A DNA stretch of 64,000 bases from Campylobacterota bacterium (GTDB lineage: Bacteria > Campylobacterota > Campylobacteria > Campylobacterales > Arcobacteraceae), in NCBI GenBank assembly GCA_051746405.1, contig JBNJFB010000005.1:1993-65992 (forward strand), in the 5' to 3' direction. The notes under the pieces were generated by a model, which saw nothing but the letters and a program-made list of their open reading frames with translations, made no database searches and was not told where the DNA came from. Numbering within the stretch: the stretch's first letter is position 1; every line of letters begins with the position of its first letter. The position numbers were made by a program, and so were the translations under genes. This document shows, piece by piece, positions 14,786-18,468 of the stretch.

Positions 14786-15934
14786 ATGAATAAACTTAAA
14801 ATAGGAGTTATTGGAACTTCTAAAAAAGTAGATGAAAAAAGACTTCCAATTCACCCAGAGCATTTAATTCGTATCCCAAAAGACCTAAGAGAACAATTGA
14901 TATTTGAAAAAGGTTATGGTGAACCTTTTGGTTTTTCAGATGAAAAAATAATAGCATTAAGTGGTGGGGTTGATACAAGATACAATTTATTATCAAAATT
15001 AGGAACAGTAATAATAAACAAACCTGTTTTGCAAGACTTAGAACAGTTAAAAATCGGTGGGACACTTTGGGGATATGTACACTGTGTGCAACAAGAAGAT
15101 ATAACACAAATTGCAATTGAAAGAGAACTAACACTTATAGCTTTTGAAGATATGTTTATTTGGTCACCCACAGGTCAAATAGGAAGACACACCTTTTATA
15201 AAAATAACGAAATGGCAGGATATTGTGCTGTTTTACACGCTTTACAACTAAAAGGAATAGATGGACATTATGGAAATCAAAGAAAAACTATAATCTTTGG
15301 ATTTGGTGCAGTTAGTCGTGGTGCAATATATGCTTTAAAAGCACATGGCTTTAGGGATATTACTATTTGTATTCAACGACCTGACCATGAGGTTAGAGAG
15401 GAAGTCCTAGACTGTCATTATGTAAGGATTCAACAAGGTAAAAAAAATGAACCTCGTATGGTAGTTATAGAACATGATGGCTCAAAATCACCACTTGAAA
15501 AGTTGATTAATCAAGCTGATATTATAGTTAATGGTATTTTTCAAGATACTACAAACCCTACTGATATTATAATTGAAAAAGAGAGTAAATCCTTAAAACC
15601 AAATAGCTTAATTATAGATATTAGTTGTGATGAGAAAATGGGTTTTTTCTTTGCAAAACCTACTACTTTTAAAAAACCGATGTTTAAGTATGATACAACA
15701 GATTACTATGCAGTGGATCACACTCCCACTTACTTATGGGAGAGTGCTACTCGTTCTATTTCTGCTGCTTTAATTGTATATTTACCAATGTTTTTAACAG
15801 GCAAAAAAAATTGGCACAAATCTCAAACTATTCAAAAAGCTATAAATATAGATTCTGGAACAATTCTTAATAAATTAGTTTTATCTTTTCAAAATAGAGA
15901 TAAAATATACCCTCATAAAATAATTAAAAATTAA
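14786..15934 (+). CDS. ceo: N5-(carboxyethyl)ornithine synthase-like protein (AlaDh/PNT superfamily)
   Basis: GVIGTSKK..EKRLPIHP, FEKGYG, NNEMAGY, GFGAVSRGA, IIDISCD, YAVDHTP. Confidence 0.7.
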   Translation: MNKLKIGVIGTSKKVDEKRLPIHPEHLIRIPKDLREQLIFEKGYGEPFGFSDEKIIALSGGVDTRYNLLSKLGTVIINKPVLQDLEQLKIGGTLWGYVHCVQQEDITQIAIERELTLIAFEDMFIWSPTGQIGRHTFYKNNEMAGYCAVLHALQLKGIDGHYGNQRKTIIFGFGAVSRGAIYALKAHGFRDITICIQRPDHEVREEVLDCHYVRIQQGKKNEPRMVVIEHDGSKSPLEKLINQADIIVNGIFQDTTNPTDIIIEKESKSLKPNSLIIDISCDEKMGFFFAKPTTFKKPMFKYDTTDYYAVDHTPTYLWESATRSISAALIVYLPMFLTGKKNWHKSQTIQKAINIDSGTILNKLVLSFQNRDKIYPHKIIKN

Positions 15935-16003
15935 AACCTCTTAATCAAATCCACATAAACAGCTGTTAAGTCTTCTACTTCTTTTACTGTAGTTCTCTCA
16001 CCT
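15931..16003 (-). repeat. Exact 73-bp duplicate of the dapE 3' end (left direct repeat)
   Basis: Identical base for base to 17368-17440. Confidence 0.97.
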
Positions 16004-16007
16004 TATA

Positions 16008-17312
16008 TTACATATCTTCCAAGCTATATCCAACAAATTCAATATCATAGTTTTTCAAATTTTTTTCTAACTTTTTTGATTTTTCTTTTAATACTTCTAT
16101 ATCTATCTTTTTGGAGTTTATTTTCACTTCACCAATTAAAACGTTTTTATCAAGTTCATTTACCGCTACAATATCTATTTCATTTAAGTTTGACTTTTCC
16201 CAATATGTACCTATTTGAGAGTACTTCTTTTTAAGTTTCAATTTCTCTAAAAAGTATTTTTCTAAAAACTTTCCACTATATACTGAAAAATCTCTTTTTA
16301 CTATAGATTTTACAAAATCATAATTTTCTATTTCTATAGCACTTTTATATTTGTAGATAAACCTAAACCAAAAGTTAAAATAGTTATCAATTATTTCATA
16401 TTTTACTGTTCTACTTCCTTCTTTTGAGAAAATTGGCTTAACTTTTTTTATCATAGTATAATCATTTTCAAGTTTATCTAAATATCCACCTATATTTCGC
16501 TTTAGGATACTTTCTATTTCACTTCTTGAAGTCTTTGAACTAGCAATAAGAGAGAGTATAGAAAAGTATGTAGTATACTCTTTACCAAACTCTTCAACCA
16601 ATAAGTTTTTACCCTCTTCTAAAAAAAGTGAAAAATCACTAAAAATAACATCTAATTGTTTTTCAAAAGTAAAAGCTTTTTTTTCTACAAAAATTTCTAC
16701 ATACTTAGCAACACCGCCTGTGAATATATAAAATGATAATAAATCTTTATTTTTATATGATGGATAGTTTTCTTTTAAAATCTCTTTTAAAGTATTTACT
16801 GTAAAACTTTTTAGATGAATCTTATTATTTGCTCTACCAAATAATGGTTCTTTTTTATCTTCAAATATTTTTTTCATCAATGAATATATAGAACCACTTA
16901 ACACTAAATTCATCTTTGATTTATCTTTATATTCATCCCATATATTTTGCATATCACTGTAAATAGAACTATTTATCTGTAAAAACTCCTGAAACTCATC
17001 TATCACTAGTGTAAATGCAGTTGTAATTGATAAGTTCATAAGATATTCAAAAAGGTTTTTAAAAGATGAAAATTCTCCAAAAACCTTAACTTTTAAAGTA
17101 TTTTCTATAATATCTACAAACTCAGCACAAAGTAAAGCTTCATTTTTTTTAGACACAAAGAAATAAACTTTTTCTTTATACGCTTCTTTTATAAGTTTAG
17201 TCTTACCAATCCTTCTTCTTCCAACTAAAACAGTCATTTTTGATGAGTCTAATGAAGAGGACTGAATATCTATTAAATTTTGTAGCTCTTTTTCTCTATT
17301 ATAAAATTTCAT
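16008..17312 (-). CDS. Archaeal-type ATPase with DUF234/PD-(D/E)XK-like C-terminus (COG1672-like)
   Basis: Walker A GRRRIGKT, Walker B LVIDEFQE, DNYFNFWFRF, EIDIVA...IGEVK. Confidence 0.88.
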   Translation of the reverse strand: MKFYNREKELQNLIDIQSSSLDSSKMTVLVGRRRIGKTKLIKEAYKEKVYFFVSKKNEALLCAEFVDIIENTLKVKVFGEFSSFKNLFEYLMNLSITTAFTLVIDEFQEFLQINSSIYSDMQNIWDEYKDKSKMNLVLSGSIYSLMKKIFEDKKEPLFGRANNKIHLKSFTVNTLKEILKENYPSYKNKDLLSFYIFTGGVAKYVEIFVEKKAFTFEKQLDVIFSDFSLFLEEGKNLLVEEFGKEYTTYFSILSLIASSKTSRSEIESILKRNIGGYLDKLENDYTMIKKVKPIFSKEGSRTVKYEIIDNYFNFWFRFIYKYKSAIEIENYDFVKSIVKRDFSVYSGKFLEKYFLEKLKLKKKYSQIGTYWEKSNLNEIDIVAVNELDKNVLIGEVKINSKKIDIEVLKEKSKKLEKNLKNYDIEFVGYSLEDM

Positions 17313-17321
17313 TTTACCTCT

Positions 17322-17360
17322 TTATAGTAATATATATTACTGTAATGTATATTACTATAA
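17322..17360. promoter_or_regulatory. 19-bp inverted repeat upstream of the ATPase gene
   Basis: TTATAGTAATATATATTAC-t-GTAATGTATATTACTATAA, one mismatch. Confidence 0.6.
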
Positions 17361-17367
17361 TCTCTTC

Positions 17368-17440
17368 TTAAAACCTCTTAATCAAATCCACATAAACAGC
17401 TGTTAAGTCTTCTACTTCTTTTACTGTAGTTCTCTCACCT
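17368..17440 (-). repeat. Right direct repeat (last 73 bp of intact dapE)
   Basis: Identical to 15931-16003. Confidence 0.97.
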
Positions 17441-18468
17441 ACGCTATGAATTGTATCATTGATTACTCCAAACTCAATAGCTTCTATGTCAAAGCTTCCA
17501 AAATACCTAGCATCACTCGTACCACCTGCAGTTGAGTGTTTTGTAGTAACTCCTGTGATTTCTTTGATAGAGTTTTCCATAGCTTTTACTACTTTTGATT
17601 CTTTATTTGTTACAAATGGAAATGACCTTTGTGTTGTGTAAAAGTCATACTCTAAGCCCTTTAAATTTTTATGAATAAACTCTTCTACTTTTTCTCTTGT
17701 GGTGTTTGTTGAGTTTCTTACATTGAACATTAGTTTTAAGTTATCAGGTGTTACGTTGGTAACTTGTGTACCACCTCTTATATCAGTTATTACCATCTTA
17801 CTTGGTGCAAAGTACTCATCACCATCATCTAGGTTATGTCCTGCTATTTTTGGTAATACATGTGCAAAATTATGTACTGGATTTATACATTTTACTGGAT
17901 AAGCTGCGTGTCCTTGCTTTCCTTTTATAGTGATGTATCCATTGATACTTCCTCTTCTTCCTACTTTTATAGCATCCCCAAAAACTTGCTCACAAGTTGG
18001 TTCTGCTACTACTGCATATTGAGGAATCATATCTATTTTTTTTAAATGCTCTAACATTTTAATAGTTCCATAAGTGCCCTCACCCTCTTCATCAGAAGTC
18101 ATAAGAATACTAAGAGTTCCATCAAAGTTTTGTGCATGTTTACAAGCATATAAAAAAGCAGCATCACCACTTTTCATATCTTGCGTTCCCCTAGCAGTTA
18201 TCACACCATTTTTTATATCAGCAGCAAAAGGATCAACATCCCAACCCTCACCTGGAGGTACCACATCTATATGACCTGCAAAACATAAGTGTTGTGGATT
18301 GTCGTTGAACTTCTTATAATAAAATCTATTTTTTACACCTTCCATATCAACACTAATACACTCCCACGTATCACCTAAATACTCTTTTATAAAATCAAAC
18401 GCCCCATCATCATCAGGAGTAATTGATTTAAATCTTAATAATTTTTGAAATAATTCTATTATTGTCAT
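17368..18468 (-). CDS. dapE: Succinyl-diaminopimelate desuccinylase
   Basis: FAGHIDVVP, RGTQDMK, SDEEG, GRRGS, GGTSDAR, TIH. Confidence 0.95.
   Translation of the reverse strand: MTIIELFQKLLRFKSITPDDDGAFDFIKEYLGDTWECISVDMEGVKNRFYYKKFNDNPQHLCFAGHIDVVPPGEGWDVDPFAADIKNGVITARGTQDMKSGDAAFLYACKHAQNFDGTLSILMTSDEEGEGTYGTIKMLEHLKKIDMIPQYAVVAEPTCEQVFGDAIKVGRRGSINGYITIKGKQGHAAYPVKCINPVHNFAHVLPKIAGHNLDDGDEYFAPSKMVITDIRGGTQVTNVTPDNLKLMFNVRNSTNTTREKVEEFIHKNLKGLEYDFYTTQRSFPFVTNKESKVVKAMENSIKEITGVTTKHSTAGGTSDARYFGSFDIEAIEFGVINDTIHSVGERTTVKEVEDLTAVYVDLIKRF

What the first reader, a model, noticed from the sequence alone, without database searches (positions are those of the whole stretch)
15931..17440. Integrase-less 1.36-kb ATPase-nuclease cassette bracketed by an exact 73-bp duplication of the dapE 3' end
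Seen: 15931-16003 equals 17368-17440, the last 73 bp of dapE including the stop. Between them (16004-17367) are only the ATPase/DUF234 gene, 4 bp downstream of it and 55 bp upstream of it. Removing one repeat plus the insert restores ceo and dapE as convergent genes with overlapping stops (TTAA). Established: elements that integrate into gene 3' ends leave such duplications. Inference: a very recent (zero mismatch) insertion or a collapsed island remnant with no recombinase in view, possibly excisable as a ~1.44-kb circle. The cargo is a candidate defence protein.
Basis: partly seen in the sequence, partly recalled or inferred. Interest (0 to 1): 0.65.

Follow-up and report, generated by a model that had tools for sequence, protein, structure and literature searches.

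The report
Recombination scar flanking defence ATPase gene
A candidate anti-phage ATPase-nuclease gene sits between two identical 73-base copies of the end of the neighbouring dapE gene. This is most likely a recombination scar in a hot spot where defence genes are swapped, a pattern already described for restriction genes, and not a self-contained mobile element.

Summary
Positions 15931-16003 and 17368-17440 are 73/73 identical, and this is the only long exact repeat in the 64-kb window. The repeats enclose only a 434-aa AAA+/winged-helix/PD-(D/E)xK gene (PADLOC candidate PDC-S27) with its 55-bp leader and 4 bp of tail.

The reading "very recent integrase-less insertion" is only partly supported.
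- In seven related Arcobacteraceae loci the same gene already lies downstream of dapE, in the same orientation and without any duplication. It is a resident of this locus, not a newcomer.
- The region after dapE is a recombinase-free hot spot for defence and toxin-antitoxin genes. In one relative (L146), ceo is the hot spot's far border.
- About 10% of homologues in metagenomes are flanked by long, locus-specific direct repeats (24 to over 72 bp; a tRNA-Met end, gene starts and stops), against about 0.5% of control windows.

This matches the "insertion with long target duplication" described for restriction genes. The best model is that two alternative hot-spot arrangements were joined by one homologous and one illegitimate crossover. 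I found no reads or strains of the same species, so an assembly artefact, excision and the parental forms remain untested. It is a new member of a known kind.

The parts
17368..18468 (-). dapE (succinyl-diaminopimelate desuccinylase), intact, 366 aa. It is the conserved left border of the variable region.
   Evidence: NCBIfam NF009557 at E = 5e-127; Pfam Peptidase_M20 + M20_dimer. Orthologues of 80-94% aa identity occur in over 30 Arcobacteraceae loci.
17368..17440 (-). Direct repeat copy A: the last 73 nt of the intact dapE, including its stop codon.
   Evidence: 100% identical to 15931-16003.
17313..17367 (-). Leader of the ATPase gene. It consists of 6 nt (GAAGAG), a three-site TTAC/GTAA operator-like palindrome (17322-17360), and the ribosome-binding site.
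   Evidence: Palindrome I12: 19-nt arms, 95% complementary. The block TTATAGTAA-N6-TTACnGTAA-N6-TTACTATAA is seen upstream of most listed homologues of 73-97% aa identity (83 upstream regions collected, 45 displayed), in unrelated contexts. Homology stops at its outer edge, about 48-56 nt before the ATG.
16008..17312 (-). 434-aa Orc1/Cdc6-like AAA+ ATPase + winged helix + C-terminal DUF234 (PD-(D/E)xK-like) protein; PADLOC candidate defence gene PDC-S27.
   Evidence: Pfam DUF234 3.9e-15, AAA_14 1.6e-7. PDC-S27 6.7e-46. Invariant residues G31, R33, R34, G36, K37, T38, D105, E106, R160, E378, D380 and K397; E395 in at least 90%. AF2 model pLDDT 88.5; top folds 2qen, 2fna, then Orc1/Cdc6, CED-4, TnsC. 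The C-terminal domain resembles RLE/restriction/Cas4/Hjc folds only weakly (best E = 5.5e-3).
16004..16007 (.). TATA, the 4 nt between the ATPase stop codon and repeat copy B. This is the novel (non-homologous) joint.
   Evidence: Colinearity with L001 ends exactly at 16004. Among 113 homologue pairs, homology ends 0-8 nt after the stop in 107.
15931..16003 (-). Direct repeat copy B: an orphan 73-nt dapE tail fragment. Its first 4 nt (TTAA) contain the ceo stop codon.
   Evidence: The sequence occurs only once in each of 64 related dapE loci.
15914..15930 (.). Short stretch after copy B. It resembles the native dapE 3' intergenic sequence of relatives and supplies the last codons of ceo.
   Evidence: The reverse complement, TTTTTAATTATTTTATG, compares with ATTTAATTATATTATG after dapE in L008. 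ceo homology to its closest relative (L146 and runs X1-X4) stops at 15919. The match is short and AT-rich, so it is suggestive only.
14786..15934 (+). ceo-like N5-(carboxyethyl)ornithine synthase-type AlaDH/PNT protein, 382 aa. It is the right border of the variable region in this lineage.
   Evidence: Pfam AlaDh_PNT_C/N. Sources name the homologues CEOS. In L146 the 91%-identical ceo lies convergent to dapE, with 5 defence/TA-type genes between them.

Best explanation
The 73-bp duplication is a recombination scar at the border of a recombinase-free hot spot for defence and toxin-antitoxin genes downstream of dapE.

Two alternative arrangements of that hot spot were joined in tandem:
- 'dapE - leader - ATPase - ...', which is seen in seven relatives;
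- 'dapE tail - short spacer - ceo', which is inferred. ceo is the far border of the hot spot in L146.

The join needed one homologous crossover, anchored in sequence the two arrangements share, and one illegitimate joint (TATA|AGGTGAG at 16003/16004). This is either homology-facilitated illegitimate recombination or the equivalent Campbell-type single crossover of a circularised fragment. The incoming DNA was probably taken up from a strain of the same species. Both cargos and the tail of the shared border gene were kept, which gives dapE - ATPase - dapE tail fragment - ceo.

The product is what the Kobayashi group called 'insertion with long target duplication'.

The ATPase gene itself is a self-contained, probably self-regulated unit: an operator-like leader plus the ORF. 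It encodes an Orc1/Cdc6-like AAA+ ATPase, a winged helix and a PD-(D/E)xK-type nuclease, and it is a candidate anti-phage gene.

Shown: the repeat, the gene content, the synteny in relatives, the hot-spot content, and the enrichment of such repeats around homologues.

Inferred: the parental arrangements, the recombination route, the defence function, and the idea that the 73-bp repeats now allow RecA-dependent loss or amplification of the 1437-bp unit.
For: 1. The ATPase lies downstream of dapE, in the same orientation and without duplication, in L001, L008, L032, L062, L143, L144 and L145.
2. Window against L001: dapE is 88.6% nt identical; the leader plus the first ~200 nt of the ATPase are 83-92%; an internal ATPase tract (17120-16280) is 93-100%, mostly 97% or more. 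This is a mosaic produced by homologous exchange, not a cassette that arrived as a whole.
3. ceo is the other border of the same variable block in L146. Copy B is followed by sequence resembling a native dapE 3' spacer.
4. A census of 111 ORFs downstream of dapE in 36 loci gave GNAT, AriA/AAA_21-like, PDC-S27, ORF6N, PDC-S05, HipA, PtuA/GajA-like, NTase/HEPN and NACHT. No integrase was among the 25 most frequent families.
5. No recombinase lies within about 15 kb of the cassette.
6. Parallel cases in homologues:
   - L093 carries a 36-40-bp copy of the helicase start upstream of the ATPase, while L104 and L139 have the same ATPase-helicase junction without it.
   - L097 against L115 shows the same pattern.
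   - L063 has a 108-bp duplication whose single-copy site exists in L027 and L028.
7. Repeats of 20 bp or more flank 9 of 86 homologue loci (8 independent), against 3 of 604 control windows. One of the control hits is a similar scar around a different cargo in the same hot spot.
8. Published precedents:
   - Long, variable target duplications spanning start or stop codons occur around restriction genes, mostly in naturally competent species including Helicobacter and Campylobacter (PMC2853133).
   - A one-anchor-plus-illegitimate-joint route has been proposed for orphan arrays in T6SS and Rhs loci (PMC5361080).
Against: - Neither parental arrangement was found in the same species. No conspecific genome or run exists in the collections searched.
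- 'dapE tail abutting ceo' was not seen in any of 64 loci.
- No microhomology can be shown at the illegitimate joint.
- The model does not explain why the joint lies only 4 nt after the ATPase stop. The same tight 3' limit recurs across the family.
- Homology-facilitated illegitimate recombination is rare in experiments (PMC5361080).
- The two copies are 100% identical, so they carry no information on separate origins.
- In L063 the two copies (10/108 differences) do not sort cleanly to different relatives.
Confidence: 0.47

Rival explanations
1. [quoted passage not shown] The 73-bp target was duplicated during the event, for example by widely staggered breaks and fill-in. Breakage might have been caused by a nuclease such as the cargo itself, as Kobayashi's group proposed for restriction genes.
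For: - The anatomy fits exactly: removing 1437 bp restores overlapping stops.
- The copies are identical.
- The cassette is trimmed to its functional unit.
- L063 has a filled site, with single-copy sites in L027 and L028, and its cassette is 94.5% identical to L032's, which sits at another position in the same hot spot.
- Repeats are enriched around homologues in unrelated sites: tRNA-Met, the tag stop codon and gene starts.
- The class is described in PMC2853133.
Against: - A random or loosely targeted insertion would not be expected to land next to the same gene (dapE), in the same orientation, as the resident copy in seven relatives.
- The left junction region is as diverged from L001 as dapE is.
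- No empty site was observed.
- No mechanism for 24-108-bp staggered breaks is known.
Confidence: 0.2
2. Assembly artefact. Two co-existing strain variants (dapE-ATPase-... and dapE><ceo) were joined end to end, and the second contig kept a 73-nt overlap with the shared dapE tail.
For: - The source contig is only 73.9 kb, and many relatives are MAGs.
- The copies are exactly identical.
- The breakpoints coincide with the places where variants are expected to diverge.
- No reads were available to check.
Against: - There are no Ns at the joint.
- De Bruijn assemblers cannot create a TATA|AGGTGAG link without reads.
- 73 is not, to my knowledge, a common default k.
- The same architecture is present in independent assemblies and isolate runs for another homologue: L070/L071 and runs X5, X6 and others.
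- Restriction genes in finished genomes show it too (PMC2853133).
Confidence: 0.1
3. Site-specific integration by a tyrosine or serine recombinase supplied in trans, or a decayed island. The 73 bp would be an attL/attR pair at the dapE 3' end, and the cassette would be a cis-mobilisable remnant that can excise as a 1437-bp circle.
For: - Duplication of a gene's 3' end that keeps the gene intact is the classical integrase signature.
- One homologue (L071) sits between a 51-bp partial copy and a full tRNA-Met.
Against: - No recombinase lies within about 15 kb, and none is among the frequent families in the hot spot.
- None of 64 related loci has a duplicated dapE tail or an element at that site.
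- Repeat length, position relative to the ORF and target type (gene starts as well as ends) differ in every case.
- The cassette has no shared sequence at its outer ends.
Confidence: 0.08
4. The ATPase-nuclease is itself a one-gene mobility machine. It would bind its palindromic leader or the target DNA, cut, and drive its own insertion or the capture of neighbouring DNA, leaving long variable duplications.
For: - Repeats are enriched about 20-fold around the family.
- Family homology has very tight limits, from the leader's edge to 0-8 nt after the stop.
- The AAA+ fold resembles Orc1/Cdc6 and the transposition ATPases TnsC and MuB.
- The nuclease motif is invariant.
Against: - The fold resemblance is generic for AAA+ proteins.
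- The tight limits are equally explained by selection on a compact promoter-plus-ORF unit.
- The outer boundaries of the duplicated units vary: 13 to 803 nt upstream, and from 2 nt inside the stop codon to 195 nt after it.
- A different cargo in the same hot spot shows the same scar (L028).
- The gene is syntenic with dapE across species.
Confidence: 0.07

Closest known systems
Insertion with long target duplication of restriction-modification and solitary restriction genes (Nobusato et al. 2000, Gene 259:99; Furuta, Abe & Kobayashi 2010, NAR 38:2428, PMC2853133)
   Same: - A short nuclease-encoding unit, which can be a single gene such as mcrA, lies between direct repeats longer than 30 bp that duplicate local sequence.
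- The repeats span a start or stop codon, so the neighbouring gene stays intact.
- There is no integrase or transposase.
- The host clade is Campylobacterota, the clade in which the class was first described (H. pylori).
   Different: - The cargo is not a recognised restriction-modification system but an AAA+/PD-(D/E)xK candidate defence gene.
- No empty site was found for this locus.
- Comparative data suggest the 'insert' was already resident and that the neighbouring block was the part added.
Homology-facilitated illegitimate recombination and the 'orphan' arrays it is proposed to leave in T6SS effector-immunity, Rhs and CDI loci (de Vries & Wackernagel 2002; Prudhomme et al. 2002; Kirchberger et al. 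2017, PMC5361080)
   Same: - One junction is colinear with relatives and one junction is novel.
- Old and new cargo are both retained downstream of a conserved anchor, together with leftover fragments of the conserved gene.
- The locus is a hot spot without mobility genes.
   Different: - The leftover here is a 73-nt tail of a housekeeping gene, not a toxin 3' end.
- The process was not demonstrated here, and no microhomology was identified.
PADLOC phage-defence candidate PDC-S27 (Pfam ATPase_2/AAA_14 + DUF234; COG1672-type 'archaeal ATPase')
   Same: - Full-length match to the PADLOC models (E = 7e-46 and 2e-34).
- An ATPase fused to a PD-(D/E)xK-superfamily module, as the family is described in PMC12988326.
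- Embedded among defence and TA genes.
   Different: The family has no experimentally shown function, so calling this gene 'defence' remains an inference.
Integrase-borne islands and cis-mobilisable elements at tRNA or gene 3' ends
   Same: A direct repeat that duplicates the 3' end of the target gene and leaves it intact.
   Different: - There is no recombinase in or near the unit.
- The dapE tail is not used recurrently as a site.
- Repeat length and position vary from case to case.
Core-gene-flanked defence hot spots exchanged by homologous recombination
   Same: A variable set of defence and TA genes lies between conserved housekeeping borders (dapE; ceo or a phnA-like gene), with no mobile-element markers.
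   Different: Here a border fragment was duplicated, so the exchange was not a clean double crossover.

Membership tests
Insertion with long target duplication (Furuta et al. 2010 criteria) | Unit flanked by direct repeats longer than 30 bp | tested here: met
   73/73 nt identical repeats at 15931-16003 and 17368-17440.
Insertion with long target duplication (Furuta et al. 2010 criteria) | The repeat aligns to a sequence present once at an empty site in a related genome | tested here: inconclusive
   The dapE tail is single-copy in all 64 related loci. However, none shows dapE abutting ceo; L146 has 5 genes between them. No conspecific genome is available.
Insertion with long target duplication (Furuta et al. 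2010 criteria) | No other mobile-element genes in or next to the unit; unit shorter than 20 kb | tested here: met
   The unit is 1364 bp with one ORF. ORFs of at least 150 aa between 501 and about 30000 are housekeeping or signalling genes.
Insertion with long target duplication (Furuta et al. 2010 criteria) | Cargo is a restriction-modification or restriction gene | tested here: inconclusive
   The cargo has an invariant D-x(n)-E-x-K motif and a weak restriction-endonuclease-like fold. It is not an annotated RM component, and its activity is untested.
Site-specific integrative element (att duplication at a gene's 3' end) | Recombinase encoded in or beside the element | tested here: not met
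   None in the unit, and none within about 15 kb.
Site-specific integrative element (att duplication at a gene's 3' end) | The same site is used recurrently in relatives | tested here: not met
   0 of 64 dapE loci carry a second copy of the dapE tail.
Transposon or insertion sequence | Terminal inverted repeats, a transposase, and a short target-site duplication of fixed length | tested here: not met
   No inverted repeat pairs the two ends; only a local palindrome lies at one end. There is no transposase. Duplication lengths in the family range from 24 to 108 bp.
Integron gene cassette | attC site with R''/R' core (RYYYAAC/GTTRRRY) and an integron integrase platform | tested here: not met
   The leader palindrome lacks these cores. 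It lies upstream of the ORF and is conserved as an operator-like triple TTAC/GTAA site.
PDC-S27 (PADLOC) | Full-length match to the family models | tested here: met
   PDLC04985 E = 6.7e-46 (residues 2-426); PDLC04984 E = 2.3e-34.
PDC-S27 (PADLOC) | ATPase fused to a PD-(D/E)xK-superfamily domain with intact motifs | tested here: met
   Walker A GRRRIGKT, Walker B DE105-106, R160, and D380...E395-V-K397 are invariant or nearly so in 57 sequences. The AAA+/winged-helix fold is confident. The nuclease fold is only weakly matched.
PDC-S27 (PADLOC) | Protects against phage | not testable with these tools
Homology-facilitated illegitimate recombination / Campbell-type product | One junction colinear with relatives and the other junction without homology | tested here: met
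   dapE-leader-ATPase is colinear with L001 up to 16004. Beyond that there is no homology except the duplicated tail.
Homology-facilitated illegitimate recombination / Campbell-type product | Parental arrangements exist; microhomology at the illegitimate joint | tested here: inconclusive
   The parent 'dapE-ATPase' is seen in 7 relatives. The parent 'dapE tail-ceo' was not seen. Microhomology cannot be assessed without the parents.

The most novel reading that the evidence does not exclude
PDC-S27-type ATPase-nuclease genes may be autonomous one-gene elements. The protein would recognise its own triple TTAC/GTAA leader or DNA ends, and would use its Orc1/TnsC-like AAA+ module and PD-(D/E)xK nuclease to make or process breaks. 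[quoted passage not shown] The 73-bp repeat here would then be the footprint of such an event, and would give a reversible excision/amplification switch.
Probability: 0.07. Interest if true: 0.85.

Novelty: new member of a known kind. Interest (0 to 1): 0.4.

Why it matters
'Insertion with long target duplication' has been a described but mechanistically unexplained route of defence-gene mobility for about 25 years.

This locus adds a clean example: zero mismatches, a single gene, and a naturally competent clade. It comes with useful comparative context. The cargo is resident next to the duplicated gene in seven relatives, and the site is a recombinase-free defence hot spot. That context favours homology-guided stacking of alternative hot-spot arrangements over a dedicated insertion machine.

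The PDC-S27 family is very common in bacteria and archaea, is functionally untested, and shows such scars in roughly one locus in ten. That makes it a practical system for testing the mechanism by transformation experiments. The 73-bp repeats also predict spontaneous loss or amplification of a defence gene.

As a single locus it is not surprising to a specialist.

Tried and rejected
The window's own genome and its nearest relatives could not be searched.
- Exact-sequence look-ups of dapE, the ATPase and ceo found nothing on record.
- Public runs: only relatives at 90-95% identity (X1-X4) or trace matches (X27, X28). There was no read-level check of the assembly, no empty site and no circle junction.
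- Empty dapE><ceo site: absent from 59 species-representative loci and 5 further loci.
- Integron attC, transposon ends and integrase: considered and rejected.
- Separate allelic origin of the two repeat copies: tested on L063, whose copies differ at 10 of 108 sites. The differences do not sort cleanly to different relatives, so the test is uninformative.
- Depth in Logan unitigs for the tRNA-Met case: isolates X5 and X6 show the cassette unitig at about half the depth of one flank. That could mean partial loss or a repeated flank, and contig depths cannot decide.
- Foldseek on the isolated C-terminal domain gave only weak matches (best E = 5.5e-3). The nuclease assignment therefore rests mainly on the invariant motif and the Pfam/PADLOC family.
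- Base composition: the ATPase is 22-25% GC against 31-35% for dapE and ceo, but the native DUF748 gene is equally AT-rich, so this is not evidence of foreign origin.
- The promoter scan was not above chance.
Full report
**Observation.** The sequence shows two perfect 73-nt direct repeats, 15931-16003 and 17368-17440, with starts 1437 bp apart. A scan of the whole window found no other direct repeat of 28 nt or more above 87% identity.

Copy A is the 3' end, stop codon included, of an intact dapE (17368-18468, minus strand). dapE matches the NCBIfam equivalogs at E = 5e-127 and 1e-121.

Between the copies lies one ORF (16008-17312, minus strand, 434 aa), preceded by 55 nt and followed by 4 nt (TATA). 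Copy B overlaps the stop codon of a ceo-like AlaDH/PNT gene (14786-15934, plus strand).

**The gene.**
- Pfam finds AAA_14 and DUF234. PADLOC assigns it to the phage-defence candidate PDC-S27 (E = 6.7e-46).
- PDC-S27 is described as an ATPase fused to a PD-(D/E)xK-superfamily domain. It is abundant in bacteria and archaea and has not been validated experimentally (PMC12988326).
- In 57 homologues, Walker A (GRRRIGKT), Walker B (D105, E106), R160, E378, D380 and K397 are invariant, and E395 is nearly so.
- An AlphaFold model (pLDDT 88.5) matches the archaeal ATPases 2qen and 2fna, then Orc1/Cdc6, CED-4/Apaf-1-type STAND proteins, TnsC and MuB.
- The isolated C-terminal domain resembles restriction-endonuclease-like folds (the R2 endonuclease domain, R.BspD6I, Cas4-family, Can2, Hjc) only weakly; the best E-value is 5.5e-3.
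- The family is large: 4552 cluster representatives at E of 1e-3 or better.
- A triple TTAC/GTAA palindromic leader (17322-17360) is conserved upstream of most listed homologues down to 73% protein identity, in unrelated contexts. It is probably the promoter-operator of an autoregulated gene. That is an inference.

**Relatives and the locus.** This gave 59 loci, the best at 94% aa identity, all Arcobacteraceae or other Campylobacterota.
- None of the 59 loci carries ceo within 6 kb of dapE, and none has a second copy of the dapE tail.
- The ATPase lies downstream of dapE, in the same orientation, in L001 (82 bp away), L008 and L032.
- It does so too in all four long contigs fetched through the closest ATPase homologues: L062, L143, L144 and L145.
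- So dapE-ATPase linkage is a shared feature of this clade, and the window alone has the duplication.

Against L001, dapE is 88.6% nt identical. The leader and the first ~200 nt of the ATPase are 83-92% identical. An internal ATPase tract is 93-100% identical, mostly 97% or more. This mosaic indicates homologous exchange within a resident gene, not arrival of a whole cassette.

The closest ceo (91% aa) lies in L146, convergent to dapE, with ORF6N, HTH-HipA, GNAT and SIMPL genes between them. There, dapE and ceo are the two borders of a variable block.

A census of 111 ORFs downstream of dapE in 36 loci is dominated by defence and toxin-antitoxin families: GNAT, AriA/AAA_21-like, PDC-S27, PDC-S05, ORF6N, HipA, PtuA/GajA-like, NTase/HEPN and NACHT. 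No integrase is among the 25 most frequent families. In the window, all ORFs of at least 150 aa between 501 and about 30000 are housekeeping or signalling genes.

**Flanking duplications in homologues.** Among 86 loci carrying a homologue, 9 (8 independent) have an exact direct repeat of 20 bp or more bracketing the gene within 1.5 kb, low-complexity repeats excluded. The control was 3 of 604 windows of the same size in the same loci.

The repeats are locus-specific:
- L070/L071: 51 bp of the tRNA-Met 3' end, with the full tRNA on one side.
- L077: 40 bp spanning the stop codon of a 3-methyladenine glycosylase gene.
- L093 and L063: the start codon regions of a DEAD-box helicase gene and of an AAA_23 gene.
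- L080, L119, L097 and L117: other repeats of 24 to over 72 bp.

The distance between each repeat and the ORF differs in every case. The tRNA-Met arrangement is present in isolate and metagenome runs from several studies, so at least that case is not an assembly artefact.

For L063, single-copy target sites exist in L027 and L028. Its cassette is 94.5% identical to that of L032, which lies elsewhere in the same hot spot.

For L093 and L097, relatives (L104/L139 and L115) have the same ATPase-target junction without the extra copy. In those cases the ATPase was resident, and the block carrying the target fragment is what differs.

One of the two control hits (L028) is a 155-bp duplication of a hipB-like gene's 3' end around a different cargo in the same dapE hot spot. 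The scar is therefore a property of the hot spot as much as of the ATPase.

**Comparison with the literature.** This matches 'insertion with long target duplication'. That class covers restriction-modification units and single restriction genes such as mcrA, flanked by long and variable direct repeats that often span start or stop codons. They have no mobility genes and occur mostly in naturally competent bacteria, including Helicobacter and Campylobacter. The mechanism is unknown, and double-strand breakage by the cargo has been suggested (PMC2853133).

A mechanistic analogue has been proposed for orphan immunity and toxin-tail arrays in T6SS and Rhs loci. [quoted passage not shown] Transformation-triggered duplication by alternative pairing has been shown experimentally in pneumococcus (PMC3784515).

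**Interpretation.** Most likely (about 0.47), the window's structure arose when two alternative arrangements of the dapE hot spot were joined. One is dapE-ATPase-..., as in seven relatives. The other is one in which the dapE tail abuts ceo.

The join took one homologous crossover and one illegitimate joint at 16003/16004, or the equivalent single crossover of a circularised fragment. Both cargos and a 73-nt tail of the shared border gene were kept. The identity of the copies means either that the event is recent or that the partner DNA came from the same species.

Rival explanations:
- De novo insertion of a free cassette with target duplication (0.2).
- Assembly artefact (0.1).
- Recombinase acting in trans, or a decayed island (0.08).
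- A self-mobilising ATPase-nuclease (0.07).

What the model does not explain is why the novel joint lies only 4 nt after the ATPase stop. The same tight limit applies to family-wide homology: 0-8 nt after the stop in 107 of 113 pairs.

**What could not be done.** No conspecific genome or sequencing run was found. Read support, the parental alleles and excision products are therefore untested. Excision or amplification through the 73-bp repeats is a prediction only.

**Earlier notes of this scan.** Notes retrieved after I had reached the same reading describe the same pattern around DUF234 ATPase genes in other genomes. They offer the same two candidate explanations. I treat them as leads, not as independent support.

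**Verdict.** This is a new member of a known kind and of moderate interest.

Noticed in passing
L028:9661-9815 and L028:11800-11954: A 155-bp duplicate (91.6% identical, 47 bp exact) of the 3' part of a hipB-like HTH gene brackets a 2.1-kb block. The block holds an AAA_23-like gene and a 350-aa gene, in the same dapE-downstream hot spot. This is the same kind of scar around a different cargo.
   Followed up: partly
L071:4709-6569: A PDC-S27 homologue is the only gene between a 51-bp partial tRNA-Met 3' copy and the full tRNA-Met. Four isolate-type runs and more than 15 metagenome runs hold this arrangement. In isolates X5 and X6 the cassette unitig has about half the depth of the right flank. 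In metagenomes a second downstream context branches off 9 nt after the ATPase stop.
   Followed up: partly
window 17322-17360 and upstream of the ATPase in the related loci: The leader TTATAGTAA-N6-TTACnGTAA-N6-TTACTATAA is conserved in most homologue loci regardless of context, and homology ends at its outer edge. It looks like a three-site operator overlapping the promoter. L080 lacks it; there a 28-bp repeat abuts the ribosome-binding site.
   Followed up: partly
window 15914-15934: The ceo-like gene is about 10 codons shorter than most homologues (382 aa against 392 aa). Its last 4-5 codons differ from its closest relative, and its stop codon is supplied by the duplicated dapE tail. The ceo 3' end was therefore itself remodelled by a rearrangement.
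   Followed up: partly
L001-L146, first 3-4 kb downstream of dapE: The dapE 3' flank in Arcobacteraceae is a hot spot filled with different defence and TA genes in nearly every species: GNAT, HipAB, ORF6N, AriA/PtuA/GajA-like ATPases, NTase/HEPN, NACHT, PDC-S05/S09/S27 and Mrr-like. No integrase is among the frequent families.
   Followed up: yes
L093:3235-6369 against L104 and L139: An AbiEi/AbiEii operon ends with a 36-40-bp copy of the start of a DEAD-box helicase gene. The ATPase and then the full helicase gene follow. Relatives have ATPase-helicase without the AbiE block. In L093 the ATPase ORF is extended so that it overlaps the helicase start codon.
   Followed up: partly
window 17120-16280 against L001: An internal tract of the ATPase gene is 93-100% identical to L001 (mostly 97% or more), while its 5' end and dapE are about 88% identical. 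This indicates a recent homologous exchange between lineages inside the defence gene.
   Followed up: partly
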